From IMG/VR virus record IMGVR_UViG_2698536471_000008: a DNA stretch of 36,707 bases; one strand, 5' to 3'. Shown piece after piece: positions 1,764-27,029 of this stretch (positions within the stretch are counted from its first letter, which is position 1; each line of letters starts with the position of its first letter). Origin of the DNA: a virus. Lineage: Duplodnaviria > Heunggongvirae > Uroviricota > Caudoviricetes. Made by a program: the position numbers and the translations under genes. Under the pieces are notes generated by a model. That model was given only the letters and a program-made list of their open reading frames with translations. It did no database searches and was not told the DNA's origin.

Positions 1764-2203
1764 TTGGCTGGGGTGTATGCGTTCTTGCGTTAGCCTTAGC
1801 CGATCGCTATTTGCTAAAACGCAAGGACATCACGCATTTAGAACTTGGTGATGTGGAAATTAAACCGGGTTTCATCCGGGTGCCGTTCAAATACCGGTCT
1901 AAATTCCCGTTTTTGCGCGGCGCAACGGTCAGATATTGGATCCGCGATGTTCAGAAGCCGACGACAGTGATTGAAGGCGAACAACGTTGTCTGACGTCGG
2001 CTGAACAGGGCGAAAACAGTGAATGGTTGTACATACCCACTGAATATATGGGTAAAGGAGAGCGACTGTGGCATTTCAACGTCATGGTTACGCATGGCGA
2101 CTCGTTCATTAACCCGTTGTATCGGATTTTCCCTGTTACTCAGCAAATCCGCAGAAGTTACGTAATAAATCTCGCACAGGATGTGTCAGATGACGAAAAA
2201 TAA
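1760..2203 (+). CDS. LydB-like protein (holin antagonist by position)
   Basis: 147-aa ORF translationally coupled to the holin-like ORF; named by synteny with the P1 lyd/darA operon only. Confidence 0.45.
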   Translation: MIGWGVCVLALALADRYLLKRKDITHLELGDVEIKPGFIRVPFKYRSKFPFLRGATVRYWIRDVQKPTTVIEGEQRCLTSAEQGENSEWLYIPTEYMGKGERLWHFNVMVTHGDSFINPLYRIFPVTQQIRRSYVINLAQDVSDDEK

Positions 2204-22349: not shown

Positions 22350-23486
22350 CTATCCTTCGTTACGAAGATGCTTATCTAAGAATTTTGTAAACTGGTTTGT
22401 TGAGCCAAAATAGTTGGGGTAGGCTTTTTTTAGTGACTTAATGTTATCTGTAGCAACGAGAACAGATATCAATACATTAGGATTAGAATCGTCTTTATTT
22501 AAGGCCTCAAGGGCTTCATCTGCTTCTTTTGTTTTAAATGCGCGAACAGACACTAGGAACATTTTTTTGTTTTTTGTATTGGGCTTGTTTTCTGCATTTC
22601 TCATTGTTACTAAGTAATGCCCCTTATGATTTTTTGGCAACTTCTTAATCAAATTCGCGTCAGAAGTTAAATTTAAGGCGATGGTGTATGTGCTTAGTTT
22701 CCTCCGTACAGATAAAGTCCGTTCCAGCTCTTTAAGCTCGCCTTCATACTGAGATACAACTAGCTCATCAAGAGTGCAGGCTTTTTCGTCGTGCGCTACA
22801 AGACATCCGGCTAGATAGAAAAATCGTCTCCATTCTGGATGCCCTTCACTTGAAGTTTTCAGCTTGATACCTTCAAGGGTATCAATTATTTCAAGGCTAG
22901 TAGCCCAAGCATGCTGCAATTGAGTTCTTAACTGTATCTCAATCTTTGTTTTTCGCCACGGATATTGATCCTCTTTCTGATCGAAGCAACTGTATGCAAG
23001 GTGGATTCCACTATAGCCGCTGTCTTTGGGAGTAAGATAATCATACTCTTTAACAATCCTATGAACAGATTTGCTTTTTAAAAGACGTTCCTTTAGCTGT
23101 ATCAACTGGTCTAAGTTTCTGACAATGGCCCTACATCCGCCAACGTCCTGCATCCGTGTTAATTTAATTGCATTGCTAGTTCTGCCTCCATCAAGACTAG
23201 GACGCTCTAGTTTATCTATTATGGTAGAAAGTCGCTTAAGTCTTCTTGCAACGAGAATCTTTTTGTCCTTGTCAACCTTAGCAGCTGCTCTTGCTAAATG
23301 ATTTTTCATGAGCATTAATGGATAAAGATGCAGCTCACGGAAATTTTGTATCATTTCAATAGATTGCTGCCTTTCTTCGTCACTACACCCGTGCCTTATC
23401 AATTGAGCAGCCCTATCAATTTGAGATTTTGAATATTTCAACTTGCATTTTTGACTTTGATAAACTTCATTCCCCATTGCTTTCAT
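22350..23486 (-). CDS. RelA/SpoT-family (toxSAS) nucleotidyltransferase with C-terminal extension; CapRel-type fused toxin-antitoxin candidate
   Basis: Synthetase-domain signatures in order: RRLKRLSTIIDK, DVGGCRAIV, YSGIHL, EIQLRTQLQHAWA; about 150 aa of C-terminal extension; visibly AT-rich single gene occupying the P1 res/mod position. Confidence 0.75.
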   Translation of the reverse strand: MKAMGNEVYQSQKCKLKYSKSQIDRAAQLIRHGCSDEERQQSIEMIQNFRELHLYPLMLMKNHLARAAAKVDKDKKILVARRLKRLSTIIDKLERPSLDGGRTSNAIKLTRMQDVGGCRAIVRNLDQLIQLKERLLKSKSVHRIVKEYDYLTPKDSGYSGIHLAYSCFDQKEDQYPWRKTKIEIQLRTQLQHAWATSLEIIDTLEGIKLKTSSEGHPEWRRFFYLAGCLVAHDEKACTLDELVVSQYEGELKELERTLSVRRKLSTYTIALNLTSDANLIKKLPKNHKGHYLVTMRNAENKPNTKNKKMFLVSVRAFKTKEADEALEALNKDDSNPNVLISVLVATDNIKSLKKAYPNYFGSTNQFTKFLDKHLRNEG

Positions 23487-23579: not shown

Positions 23580-24221
23580 TTAAAAATAATTATGCTTGCC
23601 TGTTAATACCCCTTTCGGCACTTTTTTTTGTTCCAGTATCTGGGTGCCCAGAATTATGTTAATCAGTGGACTTAGTAACGATGGTTCTTGGCGGGCCTCA
23701 ACTTCTCCAGCCATTGCCCTGATGTAGTCGGCGCTGGCAACGTTGTTGTATTCCGTCGCAAAGCAACATAGTAACGTCAGAACATGCTCTGTCGTTATTT
23801 CGCTCCAGTTGATGTTGAAAAATTCATCGCCTTTTTTATCGTGTTCGGAATCGAAGATGCTTTGGTGGAGAATGTATTTGCCGGATTCCTTGCGCGGTAA
23901 CTTGATTGCTTTCTGGCGTTCCAGCTCCTTGTAAATCTGCATTGCTTCAATCAGTACCGGCCTGCCGTTCATGAAGGGATCGCGCAACCTTACACGCTGG
24001 CCAACTCGACCAGTAATAAAGCTGTTTTCCTCTTCCACCAGCACGATAAAACCCTTTTCCTCTTTTTCTCGCAATTCGCGCAGCAGCTGGAGTTCCATAT
24101 CGCGGCGGCGTTCAGGGTAGCTGGTCCGCTCAGCCATTATCAGCTCGTTATTGATCCATGCAGCAGTCATTGACGCCGGTTTGCCGACGCTCATCGAAAC
24201 AACGCATATTTTCTTATCCAT
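23580..24221 (-). CDS. mat: Mat-like particle maturation protein (by position)
   Basis: Start taken as the ATG at 24221 (MDKKICV) with GGGGG SD 4 nt upstream; the longer track ORF to 24368 runs through the promoter region and has an implausible N-terminus. Confidence 0.5.
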   Translation of the reverse strand: MDKKICVVSMSVGKPASMTAAWINNELIMAERTSYPERRRDMELQLLRELREKEEKGFIVLVEEENSFITGRVGQRVRLRDPFMNGRPVLIEAMQIYKELERQKAIKLPRKESGKYILHQSIFDSEHDKKGDEFFNINWSEITTEHVLTLLCCFATEYNNVASADYIRAMAGEVEARQEPSLLSPLINIILGTQILEQKKVPKGVLTGKHNYF

Positions 24222-24410
24222 AGCGCCCCCTACAAAAAAGAAAAGCCACCAGCGGCGGCTTAGCAATACAACTGAAGGTAGCGCCCGGTACTCAGACTGT
24301 GCCGTCCATGGAATATTTGAAAAGGGATCCATCCGTACCGGGCATGTGATGATTCTGACTGAAGTCACTTGTCAGTTGTCAATCATTTATCATTAAAAAT
24401 AATATATTTA

Positions 24411-24971
24411 TTAGTGCATGATGTTTGCCATCTCATAGGCGTCAGCCAGTAACTCCATCTCTGACTTGTTCAGCAGGGTGAATTCTTTCTTGCCTCCAAC
24501 CACACCATCGGCATGAACAGGGACCAGCCAGGGGTATTTTGCTCTTACTTCAGCCGGTGCTGCATGCTGGTGGTGCCATCTACAAAGTGGCAATTGCTTT
24601 TTATGACAACCCGGCGCGGTACGACCGGCGATATGGTGCAGAGACACCTCATTAGATATTACTCCATGCATATAGCAGGCAATGCAGGGGAGAGTGCCAA
24701 GAGCATTGGCGATGCGCCGTTCCTCCGCCGTTGGTGTTCTCCCCTTCAAGCCACGAGATTTTATTTTTACCGCGCTTTTCCGCGTTTTGCTGGCTGGTGG
24801 GCGCTCTTTCTGTTTAGCGATACGGCGGTCGATAGTATCCCGCATTTTCTGATATTGAGATTCTCGCCAGACCGGATCAGCCAACTTCTCCCGTTGCCGA
24901 GCGATCGCTCGTTCTCTGGCTGCCTTCTGCCACTTGCGGCACTGTTCAATTTTTTGTTCGATTGTTTTCAT
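24411..24971 (-). CDS. ref: Ref recombination-enhancement HNH-type endonuclease
   Basis: 186-aa product with Cys/His-rich HNH-like core (CIACYMHG...SLHHIAG...CRWHHQH); size matches P1 Ref; C1 operator upstream. Confidence 0.85.
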   Translation of the reverse strand: MKTIEQKIEQCRKWQKAARERAIARQREKLADPVWRESQYQKMRDTIDRRIAKQKERPPASKTRKSAVKIKSRGLKGRTPTAEERRIANALGTLPCIACYMHGVISNEVSLHHIAGRTAPGCHKKQLPLCRWHHQHAAPAEVRAKYPWLVPVHADGVVGGKKEFTLLNKSEMELLADAYEMANIMH

Positions 24972-24977
24972 ATGGTC

Positions 24978-25004
24978 AAAAAAAAGGCGGCCTAATGGCC
25001 GCCT
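24978..25004 (-). terminator. Intrinsic terminator-like hairpin plus U8 tract on the ref-sense strand, ending 6 nt before the ref start codon
   Basis: On the minus strand: AGGCGGCC-ATTA-GGCCGCCT followed by TTTTTTTT, then GACCAT and ATG. Confidence 0.55.
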
Positions 25005-25043
25005 ATGATGTCAAGGAGTGAAGTAATGGCAACGTCTTCGTAG

Positions 25044-25087
25044 TTGACAAAAACTGCGACTCAATTATAGCAACCAATTAGAGCAAT
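25044..25087. promoter_or_regulatory. Divergent promoter region with C1 operator (Op2-like) upstream of ref
   Basis: Operator match ATTAGAGCAAT at 25077-25087; minus-strand TATAAT at 25064-25069; plus-strand TTGACA at 25044-25049. Confidence 0.55.
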
Positions 25088-25192
25088 TAAAGTTGTTTAT
25101 TTATCGCAAATCACATTTTTTCACTTCAGTACCTGTGTGCTATACTCCTTCTTGATTGATTGGATGCGGAATACAAACCCGCTCTTTTGTGC

Positions 25193-25219
25193 AGCCTGGC
25201 TCCTTGCCAGGCTTTTTTT
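25193..25219 (+). terminator. Plus-strand rho-independent terminator with no plus-strand gene upstream
   Basis: AGCCTGGC-TCCTT-GCCAGGCT followed by TTTTTTT; on the minus strand the same hairpin has no U-tract. Confidence 0.65.
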
Positions 25220-25529
25220 ATTTCATCATGGAAGCTGTTAACGCTTTGGACCTTGCTGAACTGATTGAGAGGGCTTTGTCAACGTGCCCCAAAAATTCGC
25301 CAAACTCAGACATCACTTTAGCAAAACCGCGCCGTGCTTCTTCCTCGGTGGCATTCATCACGAAATGTTCAGCACCACGCATACTTTTGACAGGGAACGC
25401 AACGGATATTGAATCAATATCAGGCATTCTATCGCTCAGCTTTACAGTGACAATGACGGCTGGCGACTGAATATTAGTGCTTACAGACAGCACTACATAT
25501 TTTCCGTCGATGTTGAAATCCTTTCTCAT
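25218..25529 (-). CDS. Cra-like protein (cre-adjacent, by position)
   Basis: 103-aa ORF downstream of cre with GGTGA SD 3-4 nt before the ATG; C1 operator-like site immediately upstream. Confidence 0.5.
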   Translation of the reverse strand: MRKDFNIDGKYVVLSVSTNIQSPAVIVTVKLSDRMPDIDSISVAFPVKSMRGAEHFVMNATEEEARRGFAKVMSEFGEFLGHVDKALSISSARSKALTASMMK

Positions 25530-25545
25530 ATGTCACCATAAATAT

Positions 25546-25562
25546 CAAAGAATTAGAGCAAT
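25546..25562. promoter_or_regulatory. C1 operator-like site between cre and the cra-like gene
   Basis: ATTAGAGCAAT core at 25552-25562 (reverse complement ATTGCTCTAAT). Confidence 0.55.
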
Positions 25563-25579
25563 CATTTACGCGTTAATGG

Positions 25580-26611
25580 CTAATCGCCATCTTCCAGCAG
25601 GCGCACCATTGCCCCTGTTTCACTATCCAGGTTACGGATATAGTTCATGACAATATTTACGTTGGTCCAGCCACCAGCTTGCATGATCTCCGGTATTGAA
25701 ACTCCGGCGCGGGCCATATCTCGCGCGGCTCCGACACGGGCACTGTGTCCAGACCAGGCCAGGTATCTCTGCCCAGAGTCATCCTTAGCGCCGTAAATCA
25801 ATCGATGAGTTGCTTCAAAAATCCCTTCCAGAGCGCGAGTTGATAGCTGGCTGGTGGCAGATGGCGCGGCAACACCATTTTTTCTGACACGGCAAAACAG
25901 GTAGTTATTCGGATCATCAGCCACACCAGAGACAGAAATCCATCGCTCGACCAGTTTAGTTACCCCCAGGCTAAGTGCCTTCTCTACACCTGCGGTGCTA
26001 ACCAGCGTTTTCGTTCTGCCAATATGGATTAACATTCTCCCACCGTCAGTACGTGAGATATCTTTAACCCTGATCCTGGCAATTTCGGCTATACGTAACA
26101 GGGTGTTATAAGCAATCCCCAGAAATGCCAGATTCCGTATATCCTGGCAGCGATCGCTATTTTCCATGAGTGAACGAACCTGGTCGAAATCAGTGCGTTC
26201 GAACGCCAATGCCTGTTTTGCACGTTCACCGGCATCAACGTTTTCTTTTCGAATCCGCCGCATAACCAGTGAAACAGCATTGCTGTCACTTGGTCGTGGC
26301 AGCCCGGACCGACGATGAAGCATGTTTAGCTGGCCCAAATGTTGCTGGATAGTTTTTACTGCCAGACCGCGCGCCTGAAGATATAGAAGATAATCGCGAA
26401 CATCTTCAGGTTCTGCGGGAAACCATTTCCGGTTATTCAACTTGCACCATGCCGCCCACGACCGGCAAACGGACAGAAGCATTTTCCAGGTATGCTCAGA
26501 AAACGCCTGGCGATCCCTGAACATGTCCATCAGGTTCTTGCGAACCTCATCACTCGTTGCATCGACCGGTAATGCAGGCAAATTTTGGTGTACGGTCAGT
26601 AAATTGGACAT
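25580..26611 (-). CDS. cre: Cre tyrosine recombinase
   Basis: 343-aa product beginning MSNLLTVHQNLPALPVDATSDEVRKNLMDMFRDRQAFSEHTWKMLLSVCRSWAAWCKLNNRKWFPAEPEDVRDYLLYLQARGLAVKTIQQHL and ending GWTNVNIVMNYIRNLDSETGAMVRLLEDGD, recognised as Cre; loxP lies 419 bp upstream. Confidence 0.97.
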   Translation of the reverse strand: MSNLLTVHQNLPALPVDATSDEVRKNLMDMFRDRQAFSEHTWKMLLSVCRSWAAWCKLNNRKWFPAEPEDVRDYLLYLQARGLAVKTIQQHLGQLNMLHRRSGLPRPSDSNAVSLVMRRIRKENVDAGERAKQALAFERTDFDQVRSLMENSDRCQDIRNLAFLGIAYNTLLRIAEIARIRVKDISRTDGGRMLIHIGRTKTLVSTAGVEKALSLGVTKLVERWISVSGVADDPNNYLFCRVRKNGVAAPSATSQLSTRALEGIFEATHRLIYGAKDDSGQRYLAWSGHSARVGAARDMARAGVSIPEIMQAGGWTNVNIVMNYIRNLDSETGAMVRLLEDGD

Positions 26612-27029
26612 TTAACACTCAGATAATGGTTTTAAGTAAAGTGTACAGGATCGGCTCTGCCTTTACCTGTTTATGGTTCTCGTCATAGAAACGCCAGCGA
26701 CCGCGCGTGCGTTCTATTTTCTCTTCACCGCGCGATAATGACAGTTGACAACTATCACGATCAAACCCTTTTGCCCGCCAGTAACCACGGTTTTTCTCAA
26801 GCTCAAGATGAGTGGACACTTTAGCAGCTGAATATCCCATTTTTCACCTCTGATTGATTGGTGGTGCTAAGTGCGCTACGCGAAATCTGGAGCACTAACA
26901 CTGCCAACATTTCGCAGATTTTACGTAGCGCAACCTTGATCAAATGATCAAGTGATCACTATTTGACCTGATAAGGTATTGAACTGTATGGATTTACAGG
27001 TAAATTGATCATGTTCAATAACCCTTAAG

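What the first reader, a model, noticed from the sequence alone, without database searches (positions are those of the whole stretch)
25118..25219. Candidate small RNA between ref and cra: extended -10 promoter followed about 65 nt later by a canonical plus-strand terminator
The hairpin AGCCTGGC-TCCTT-GCCAGGCT plus T7 at 25193-25219 is a textbook intrinsic terminator on the plus strand. The nearest upstream plus-strand gene is more than 2.8 kb away, beyond several minus-strand genes, so it terminates nothing annotated. Upstream on the same strand is TGcTATACT (extended -10, 25138-25146) with a weak -35 (TTTTCA near 25118), and further up a perfect TTGACA (25044-25049) next to a C1 operator. 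This predicts a short plus-strand transcript of about 65 nt (or about 140 nt from the upstream promoter), antisense to the 3' end of the cra message and possibly C1-controlled. The 104-aa plus ORF in the track here runs through the terminator and is probably not real.
Basis: inference. Interest (0 to 1): 0.45.

Follow-up and report, generated by a model that had tools for sequence, protein, structure and literature searches.

The report
Candidate small RNA gene in phage P1
Just downstream of the P1 c8 gene, on the opposite strand, a good promoter and a textbook terminator bracket a very conserved stretch of about 65 bases that looks like an undescribed small regulatory RNA carried by about one in nine complete E. 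coli genomes, but there is no evidence yet that it is transcribed.

Summary
The plus strand carries TTTTCA-17-TGcTATACT (25118-25146). An 8-bp hairpin (25193-25213, -15.6 kcal/mol) plus T7 follows. The window is a P1-like phage-plasmid, reverse-complemented. The neighbouring gene is c8, not cra.

The same sequence occurs in P1, P7 and 615 of 5,426 complete E. coli genomes. It is not annotated anywhere and matches no Rfam family. The stretch from the -10 to the terminator is the least variable non-coding DNA in the locus (diversity 0.0135, against 0.068 at cre four-fold sites and 0.11-0.13 in other spacers).

My best reading (about 0.5) is an independently transcribed RNA of about 60-67 nt with Hfq-type architecture. 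It would be fully complementary to the c8 3'UTR. A weaker lead is that its 5' end pairs with CCAAUCAAUC next to the cra ribosome-binding site.

Cautions:
- There is no expression data and no significant covariation.
- Low diversity runs 48 nt past the terminator into c8, and flanking alleles reassort across the block.
- In relatives where a plus-strand KilAC gene replaces ref, this terminator would simply end that gene's transcript.
- The 104-aa plus ORF is not real.

The parts
25118..25123 (+). Weak -35-like hexamer TTTTCA, 17 nt upstream of the -10.
   Evidence: Found by the promoter scan. It varies among relatives and is lost in two transposon-insertion variants (L040, L074) and altered in pESBL_CTXM55. 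That pattern fits a promoter driven mainly by its extended -10.
25138..25146 (+). Extended -10 element TGcTATACT.
   Evidence: TATACT is invariant in all 60 distinct relatives that cover it. The TG is changed to TA in 2 of them. The left edge of the low-diversity block lies about 5-8 nt upstream of it.
25154..25220 (+). Predicted small RNA of about 60-67 nt. The start at G25154 is inferred from the -10 position and the 3' end lies in the T-run. This corresponds to complement(1827..1894) of P1 AF234172/NC_005856.
   Evidence: Fold energy is -23.2 kcal/mol, z = -3.7. Nucleotide diversity is 0.0093 with 10 of 67 sites variable. There is no Rfam family match. No feature is annotated here in the P1 or P7 records or in RefSeq E. 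coli plasmids.
25154..25163 (+). Single-stranded 5' end GAUUGAUUGG, a candidate seed.
   Evidence: Unpaired probability is 0.66-0.99 for the first 8 nt. Positions 1-9 are invariant in all variants.
25166..25182 (+). Small internal stem-loop, GCGG / 9-nt loop / CCGC.
   Evidence: Present in the minimum-energy and centroid folds. The pairs are mostly invariant, with one G-U and one broken case.
25183..25192 (+). U-rich linker UCUUUUGUGC. Its first three bases (UCU) form the weak lower pairs of the internal stem in the minimum-energy fold. UUUUGUG (25186-25192) is single-stranded, just upstream of the terminator.
   Evidence: Unpaired probability is 0.73-0.95 for RNA positions 33-39 and only 0.06-0.14 for positions 30-32. 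An Hfq-module-like arrangement is inferred from established knowledge of sRNA architecture.
25193..25219 (+). Intrinsic terminator: 8-bp stem, 5-nt loop UCCUU, T7 tail.
   Evidence: The stem is invariant except for one C-to-T change at 25200 (pNDM-M121). That change gives U-G on the plus strand but A.C on the minus strand. The T-run is at least 6 long in 90 of 91 relatives.
Its stop codon overlaps the T-run, and its 3'UTR is the complement of the predicted RNA.
   Evidence: The next minus-strand terminator is at 25004-24985, so c8 transcripts should cross the whole block.
25221..25268 (.). The last 16 codons of c8. The low-diversity block extends through them, which the RNA model does not explain.
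   Evidence: Diversity is 0.022. Four-fold sites here are at 0.029 (n=8), against 0.20 in the rest of c8.
26852..26861 (-). CCAATCAATC, 12-21 nt upstream of the cra start codon and directly 5' of its SD. It is a candidate trans target of the 5' seed. This is a lead only.
   Evidence: The 10-bp duplex is about -15 kcal/mol and the site is accessible. It is conserved wherever cra is present, but no compensatory changes were seen.
24985..25092 (-). Context: divergent minus-strand unit. It comprises P2ref (TGCTATAAT, 25072-25064), the C1 operator Oref (25074-25090), the ref leader and the attenuator hairpin plus U8 (25004-24985).
   Evidence: P1 annotation, scans and fold.

Best explanation
The block from 25138 to 25220 is an independent small transcription unit on the strand opposite to cre-c8-ref. 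A sigma-70 promoter that relies on an extended -10 (TGcTATACT) starts transcription at about 25153-25154. The strong intrinsic terminator ends it at about 25219-25220. The product is a non-coding RNA of about 60-67 nt.

The RNA has the build of an enterobacterial base-pairing sRNA. It has a free 5' end (GAUUGAUUGG), a small internal hairpin, a U-rich single-stranded stretch, and a GC-rich terminator hairpin with a tail of at least 6 U.

No minus-strand terminator follows c8 until 25004-24985. The RNA is therefore fully complementary to the 3'UTR of cre-c8 transcripts. The mechanism I consider most likely is cis-antisense pairing with that 3'UTR. The double-stranded RNA would be processed and separate the c8 message from read-through into the ref control region, in the manner of GadY on gadX-gadW.

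A second, weaker possibility is trans action of the 5' seed on CCAAUCAAUC sites that abut ribosome-binding sites. One site is at cra in the window. Another is in P1, at a small hydrophobic ORF upstream of pmgT.

Shown here: the signals, their strand specificity, their conservation, and the absence of coding potential. Inferred: transcription, the exact ends, Hfq binding and both modes of action.
For: - Promoter and terminator lie on the same strand with sensible spacing. The terminator works on the plus strand only.
- The sequence is identical in P1 and P7 apart from T-run length.
- In about 60 distinct relatives TATACT is invariant and the terminator stem is invariant. The RNA body is at 0.0093 diversity, against 0.068 at cre four-fold sites (Mann-Whitney p = 0.002), 0.175 at c8 four-fold sites and 0.11-0.13 in neighbouring spacers.
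- The left edge of conservation coincides with the extended -10. Two independent Tn3-family insertions (25129/30 and 25133) remove the -35 but leave the -10 and RNA intact.
- The only stem substitution seen gives a G-U pair on the plus-strand RNA but a mismatch on the minus strand.
- Plus-strand ORFs crossing the terminator are frame-shifted by T-run polymorphism, so the constraint is not coding.
- The fold has a z-score of -3.7, with a free 5' end and a U-rich linker.
- The seed complement occurs 5 times in P1, in the top 0.06% of 10-mers. Three copies are at or near translation starts.
- The block is present in 615 of 5,426 complete E. coli genomes at 95% identity or more.
Against: - No transcript evidence of any kind was available.
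- Covariation is not above shuffled controls. There is one compensatory pair, and the G10-C31 pair is broken in 5 of 13 variants.
- Extended -10-like motifs are common by chance. The chance of one lying upstream of a given terminator is about 0.03.
- Low diversity continues 48 nt beyond the terminator into c8, which the RNA model does not explain.
- Allele classes on the two flanks reassort freely. The block is therefore also a recombination junction, and homogenisation could account for part of its uniformity.
- The c8 family is narrow (82% identity or more), so there is no deep comparative test.
- Target prediction against 92 P1 translation-start regions was not better than shuffles (11 of 100 as good).
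- The seed finding is post hoc and has no compensatory support.
- One natural plasmid has lost the block together with c8, so it is dispensable.
Confidence: 0.5

Rival explanations
1. The terminator is an insulator, not the end of a dedicated gene. It stops plus-strand transcripts that come out of the hypervariable region next to c8 (ref/mat/res-mod or their replacements). Antisense transcription therefore does not run into c8 and cre. On this view the extended -10 upstream is incidental.
For: - In about 13 of 60 distinct relatives ref is replaced by a plus-strand KilAC antirepressor gene. That gene ends at the 24985-25004 hairpin, which has no U-tract on the plus strand. The 25193 terminator is then the first proper terminator downstream of that gene.
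- In the window a 10/12 plus-strand promoter-like site lies at 24376-24403. Its +1 region is covered by the P1 operator Omat. It would give an antisense-ref transcript that reaches this terminator.
- The c8-mat junction is a published insertion and recombination hot spot (PMC6906374). Four Tn3-family insertions were seen here.
Against: - An insulator needs only the hairpin and T-run (27 nt). In fact the 55 nt upstream, including the -10, are equally invariant.
- In P1 itself and in this window no annotated plus-strand gene lies within 3 kb.
- The two roles are not mutually exclusive.
Confidence: 0.25
2. The conserved block acts on the minus strand or at the DNA level. One version is that the hairpin is a 3' stabiliser or processing site of the cre-c8 mRNA. 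Another is that the 135-bp block (25134-25268) is simply a conserved linker where recombination exchanges c8 alleles and variable-region cassettes. The plus-strand signals would then be by-products.
For: - Low diversity spans 25134-25268 and is not bounded by the terminator.
- Flank allele classes reassort across it.
- The palindrome folds equally well on the minus strand (-15.0 kcal/mol) and sits 5 nt after the c8 stop.
- There is no significant covariation.
Against: - A 7-8 T run placed exactly 3' of the stem on the plus strand, with none on the minus strand, is not needed for a stabiliser.
- The T-run stays at 6 or more despite frequent length changes.
- The single stem substitution preserves pairing only on the plus strand.
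- A mere recombination linker does not predict the left boundary falling at the -10.
Confidence: 0.15
3. One reading: a C1-repressed transcript of about 140 nt from the upstream TTGACA (25044-25049), ending at the same terminator.
For: TTGACA is perfect and conserved. The Oref operator lies just downstream of it.
Against: - There is no usable -10 at 16-18 nt. The candidates TATAGC, ATAGCA and TAGCAA all lack the final T, and the scan did not report the site.
- TTGACA is the complement of part of the ref leader transcribed from P2ref, which explains its conservation.
- Oref is oriented for, and overlaps, the minus-strand P2ref.
Confidence: 0.05

Closest known systems
GadY of E. coli (a cis-encoded sRNA antisense to the gadX 3'UTR / gadX-gadW spacer)
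   Same: Both are short RNAs with their own promoter and intrinsic terminator. Both are encoded opposite the region just downstream of a stop codon and are fully complementary to the mRNA 3'UTR or intercistronic region. This comparison rests on established knowledge of GadY.
   Different: There is no sequence or family relationship. The Rfam GadY model scores 13.4 bits against a gathering score of 45. Expression, processing and Hfq binding are untested here.
P1/P7 c4 antisense RNA (immI), the only regulatory RNA described for P1
   Same: Both are phage P1-encoded small base-pairing RNAs that would act on phage messages.
   Different: c4 is processed from the 5' part of the mRNA it regulates, on the same strand, and lies in immI. 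This candidate would be a free-standing convergent unit next to c8. No Rfam family, including any for c4, reaches threshold in this window. immI is not in the window.
Hfq-dependent trans-acting sRNAs of enterobacteria and their prophages (for example DicF, and the EHEC prophage sRNAs AgvB/AsxR)
   Same: The architecture matches: a free conserved 5' seed, a U-rich stretch before a GC-rich terminator hairpin, and a tail of at least 6 U. It is carried on a mobile element.
   Different: No Hfq or target data exist. The seed-target match to cra is only 10 nt, is post hoc and lacks compensatory support.
Insulating or shared terminators at convergent gene junctions
   Same: It is a strong terminator placed exactly at the 3' end of a convergent gene. 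In some relatives it serves a real plus-strand gene.
   Different: It is unidirectional, not bidirectional. It is preceded by a conserved promoter-like element and a conserved 40-nt body, which an insulator does not need.

Membership tests
Intrinsic (Rho-independent) terminator, plus strand | GC-rich stem of at least 5-8 bp with a loop of 3-8 nt | tested here: met
   The stem has 8 pairs, 6 of them G-C, with a 5-nt loop and an energy of -15.6 kcal/mol.
Intrinsic (Rho-independent) terminator, plus strand | U-tract immediately 3' of the stem on the transcribed strand | tested here: met
   T7 in the window. T-run length is 5-9 in 91 relatives, and at least 6 in 90 of them. The minus strand has GCACAAAAGAG instead.
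Intrinsic (Rho-independent) terminator, plus strand | Termination demonstrated in vivo or in vitro | not testable with these tools
   This needs Term-seq or a read-through reporter.
Sigma-70 extended -10 promoter | TGn directly upstream of a -10 hexamer that keeps A at position 2 and T at position 6 | tested here: met
   TGcTATACT at 25138-25146. The hexamer is invariant in relatives.
Sigma-70 extended -10 promoter | Transcription initiates 6-8 nt downstream | not testable with these tools
   No TSS data were found in the searchable literature.
Any curated RNA family (Rfam 15, 4,227 models) | Score at or above the family's gathering threshold | tested here: not met
   There were 0 hits in the whole window at gathering thresholds. 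The permissive scan gave only sub-threshold, terminator-driven hits: SorX 22.6 against 46.6, GadY 13.4 against 45.
Hfq-dependent base-pairing sRNA | Terminator hairpin with a tail of at least 6 U, preceded by a single-stranded U/A-rich stretch | tested here: met
Hfq-dependent base-pairing sRNA | Conserved, accessible seed with complementary sites in target translation-start regions | tested here: inconclusive
   The 5' 10-mer is conserved and unpaired. Its complement abuts the SD of cra and of a small ORF upstream of pmgT. However, the global target scan is not better than shuffles and there is no compensatory variation.
Hfq-dependent base-pairing sRNA | Binds Hfq, with Hfq-dependent stability or regulation | not testable with these tools
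   This needs Hfq co-IP, CLIP or RIL-seq in a P1 lysogen.
Cis-antisense RNA overlapping an mRNA 3'UTR (GadY-like) | The sense transcript actually extends across the antisense gene | tested here: inconclusive
   No minus-strand intrinsic terminator lies between the c8 stop (25218) and 25004-24985, so read-through is expected. It has not been shown.
Structured RNA supported by covariation | Compensatory base changes above background | tested here: not met
   One pair has a double change, and 320-327 of 500 shuffles do as well. The sequences are too similar for a real test.
Type I toxin-antitoxin or small protein gene | A conserved small ORF with start, stop and a maintained frame | tested here: not met
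   Plus-strand ORFs (34, 34 and 104 aa) run through the terminator. T-run indels shift the frame, and the 104-aa ORF is intact in only 25 of 91 relatives. The minus-strand AAGGAG has no start codon 5-10 nt downstream.
C1 operator | At most 3-4 mismatches to ATTGCTCTAATAAATTT within or overlapping the promoter | tested here: not met
   No match with 3 or fewer mismatches lies in 25100-25220. The nearest operator, Oref, lies at -80 to -64.

The most novel reading that the evidence does not exclude
P1-like phage-plasmids, present in about 11% of complete E. coli genomes, would encode a previously unnoticed, constitutively made Hfq-type sRNA. It would have two modes of action. In cis it would trim cre-c8 transcripts. 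In trans its 10-nt 5' seed would repress translation of cra (the first gene of the Dam-regulated cra-cre transcript) and of a hidden 28-aa hydrophobic ORF in the C1-controlled pmgT leader. That would link plasmid maintenance by Cre to late and lytic functions. It might also reach host mRNAs.
Probability: 0.1. Interest if true: 0.65.

Novelty: new member of a known kind. Interest (0 to 1): 0.4.

Why it matters
P1 is one of the most thoroughly annotated phages. Its Cre-lox region is a universal tool, and the only regulatory RNA known in P1 is c4. A second, unannotated small RNA gene beside cre-c8 would add a post-transcriptional layer to the control of c8, cre or ref. It would sit in every Cre-containing P1 fragment that extends past c8, and it would be carried by about one in nine sequenced E. 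coli strains. It is also cheap to test, with one Northern blot or a re-mapping of existing stranded P1 RNA-seq data. If it is only an insulating terminator at a recombination junction, it is an ordinary feature.

Tried and rejected
- Rfam at gathering thresholds on the whole window and at permissive E-values on 24950-25350 gave nothing real.
- Literature searches for a P1 sRNA, TSS map or antisense RNA in this region found nothing. The two key papers, Lobocka 2004 and Windle 1988, are not held.
- I looked for deeper homologues to obtain covariation. The c8 family is confined to P1-like elements at 82% identity or more. Genome and viral scans gave only close relatives. Covariation counts equal the shuffled controls.
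- A duplex scan against 92 P1 translation-start regions had ban as best hit at -32.8 kcal/mol, against a shuffled best of -29.7 +/- 2.5. That is not significant, and the duplexes contained long loops.
- Coding readings of the plus ORFs were rejected because of T-run frameshifts.
- A minus-strand small ORF after AAGGAG was rejected because there is no start codon.
- A C1 operator inside the block was rejected.
- I asked whether the block occurs without c8. In MH445380 c8 is merely split by a Tn1721-like insertion at 25243, so this is not informative.
- Transposon insertions avoid 25134-25220, but with only 4 events this is not significant.

Full report
**Identity of the locus**

The window is a P1-like phage-plasmid in reverse orientation relative to the P1 map. 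The stretch 24900-25650 is 96.5% identical to P1 and 95% identical to P7.

The richly annotated P1 record AF234172 fixes the minus-strand gene order:
- cra: 26619-26840
- cre: 25580-26611
- c8: 25218-25529
- ref: 24411-24971
- mat: 23580-24368

It has no Pfam domain, falls in PHROG 1968 of unknown function, and belongs to a family confined to P1-like elements at 82% identity or more.

The P1 record places the ref control elements in the spacer on the minus strand. P2ref, with a perfect extended -10, lies at window 25072-25064. The C1 operator Oref lies at 25074-25090. P1ref lies at 25032-25005. The record lists no promoter, terminator or RNA on the other strand, and neither does the P7 record.

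**Check of the observation**

The hairpin energy is -15.6 kcal/mol. On the minus strand the palindrome is preceded by A7 and followed by GCACAAAAGAG. As an intrinsic terminator it is therefore specific to the plus strand. It is one of only three strong terminator-like sites in 19.7 kb.

The promoter-like match alone is weak evidence. TGnTATAAT with at most one mismatch occurs 22 times in the window, against 31 expected. One such motif within about 80 nt upstream of a given terminator has a chance probability of about 0.03.

**Comparative evidence**

I collected 80 viral-contig loci, 3 genome loci and several plasmids.

- From 25136 to 25220 the sequence is almost invariant. TATACT never changes, the TG changes in 2 of 60 distinct sequences, and the terminator stem is fixed.
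- Diversity is 0.0135 for 25134-25220 and 0.0093 for the predicted RNA. The comparison values are 0.068 at cre four-fold degenerate sites (Mann-Whitney p = 0.002), 0.175 at c8 four-fold sites and 0.11-0.13 in the other spacers.
- The left boundary of the conserved block lies just upstream of the extended -10. Two independent Tn3-family insertions (L074 at 25129/30, L040 at 25133) remove the -35 and leave the rest intact.
- The single stem substitution found (C25200 to T, pNDM-M121) keeps a U-G pair on the plus-strand RNA but gives A.C on the minus strand.
- The block occurs in 615 of 5,426 complete E. coli genomes, always at 95% identity or more. No ncRNA is annotated there.

**Limits of that evidence**

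- Covariation is no better than shuffled controls, because the family is too young.
- Low diversity does not stop at the terminator. It continues through the last 16 codons of c8, to about 25268. Four-fold sites there are at 0.029 (n=8), against 0.20 in the rest of c8.
- Allele classes of the left flank (ref leader) and the right flank (c8 body) reassort freely. The block is therefore also a recombination junction, and homogenisation may contribute to its uniformity.
- One Salmonella plasmid has a clean deletion of about 25118-25516, which removes the block and c8 together. The unit is dispensable.

**What the RNA would look like**

A start at G25154 would give a 67-nt RNA. It folds at -23.2 kcal/mol (z = -3.7) into four parts: a free 5' end GAUUGAUU, a small GCGG/CCGC hairpin, a single-stranded UUUUGUG stretch and the terminator. 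From established knowledge of enterobacterial sRNAs, this matches the usual Hfq-binding layout.

It is non-coding. The plus-strand ORFs (34, 34 and 104 aa) all run through the terminator. T-run length varies from 5 to 9 among relatives, and the 104-aa ORF is intact in only 25 of 91.

No Rfam family matches at threshold. The permissive scan gives only terminator-driven hits below threshold.

**How it might work**

No minus-strand terminator lies between the c8 stop and the ref attenuator at 25004-24985. Transcripts of cre-c8 should therefore cross the block, and the RNA would be perfectly complementary to their 3'UTR. It overlaps the coding sequence only at the stop codon. Cis-antisense pairing with processing of the duplex, as for GadY on gadX-gadW, is therefore the mechanism I rank first. 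This is inference.

A second lead concerns the 5' 10-mer, which is complementary to CCAATCAATC.
- The complement sits 12-21 nt upstream of the cra start, directly before its SD (window 26852-26861).
- In P1 it also sits directly before the SD of an unannotated 28-aa hydrophobic ORF in the C1-controlled pmgT leader. A third copy is at codons 7-10 of pmgS.
- The 10-mer occurs five times in P1, which places it in the top 0.06% of 10-mers.
- The seed duplex is about -15 kcal/mol and both partners are accessible.

This lead is post hoc. A scan of 92 P1 translation-start regions was not better than shuffles. Variants of the seed and of the cra site show no compensation. Host targets could not be examined.

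**Rival readings**

1. *Insulator.* In about 13 of 60 distinct relatives ref is replaced by a plus-strand KilAC antirepressor gene. That gene ends at the 24985-25004 hairpin, which lacks a plus-strand U-tract, so the 25193 terminator is the first real terminator for it. In the window a 10/12 plus-strand promoter-like site at 24376-24403 has its +1 region covered by the operator Omat. It could send an antisense-ref transcript to the same terminator. The c8-mat junction is a published hot spot for insertions (PMC6906374). Against this reading, an insulator does not explain the invariance of the -10 and of the 40-nt body.
2. *Minus-strand stabiliser or recombination linker.* This explains the extension of conservation into c8 and the reassortment. 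It does not explain the one-sided U-tract or the left boundary.

**Verdict**

I give about 0.5 to a real small RNA of about 65 nt. About 0.25 goes to a terminator that mainly insulates c8-cre from plus-strand transcription. About 0.15 goes to a minus-strand or DNA-level role.

If real, it is a new member of a known kind: a mobile-element-encoded base-pairing RNA, in a classical phage where only c4 RNA is known. Nothing in the searchable literature or databases describes it. Two older papers that could bear on it could not be read.

Noticed in passing
window 24985-25092 (minus strand): The ref leader unit starts at the C1-controlled P2ref (perfect extended -10 TGCTATAAT) and runs to a strong terminator hairpin plus U8 only 13 nt before the ref ATG. 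P1ref would start inside that hairpin. The promoter-operator-terminator unit is retained in relatives where ref itself is replaced by a convergent KilAC antirepressor gene (L087-L089). It may therefore be a stand-alone C1-controlled RNA of about 80 nt, or an attenuator (compare the title of Windle et al. 1988).
   Followed up: partly
window 24376-24419 (plus strand): A promoter-like site TTGTCA-16-AATAAT (10/12) lies back-to-back with Pmat. The annotated P1 operator Omat covers its predicted +1 region. This suggests a C1-repressed transcript antisense to ref, which would end at the 25193 terminator.
   Followed up: partly
window 25553-25569 (minus strand), cre-c8 spacer: An operator-like sequence ATTGCTCTAATTCTTTG matches the C1 operator consensus at 13 of 17 positions and lies just upstream of c8. 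It is not annotated in P1, where it reads ATTGCTATAATTATTTG.
   Followed up: no
window 25221-25268: The last 16 codons of c8 are nearly invariant even at four-fold sites (0.029, against 0.20 in the rest of c8). The low-diversity block therefore overshoots the terminator by 48 nt. This is unexplained.
   Followed up: partly
window 22350-23486 (minus strand): A 378-aa ORF with a RelA_SpoT nucleotidyltransferase domain (Pfam E = 3e-12, PHROG 4773) occupies the position where P1 has the res-mod restriction cassette. It may be a defence or toxin cargo gene in the known variable region RD-1.
   Followed up: partly
L022, L040, L074 (viral contigs) and MH445380.1/MH422554.1; window equivalents 25025, 25133, 25129/30 and 25243: Four independent Tn3-family transposon ends lie within about 220 bp around the block, and P7 carries Tn3 in the 3' end of ref. 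This is an insertion hot spot. None of the insertions interrupts 25134-25220.
   Followed up: partly
L086 (Salmonella plasmid pCFSAN058545_02), equivalent to window about 25118-25516: A natural clean deletion removes the candidate RNA gene and c8 together and joins the ref control region to the first codons of c8.
   Followed up: yes
L095 640-780 (P1 AF234172, about 84,339-84,479; outside the window): An unannotated 28-aa hydrophobic ORF (MNTAFKIIMAAIYFWLFSITFGGIVAHG) with a good SD lies in the C1-controlled pmgT leader, after a hairpin. Its SD is preceded by CCAATCAATCA, the same motif found upstream of the cra SD and complementary to the 5' end of the candidate RNA.
   Followed up: partly
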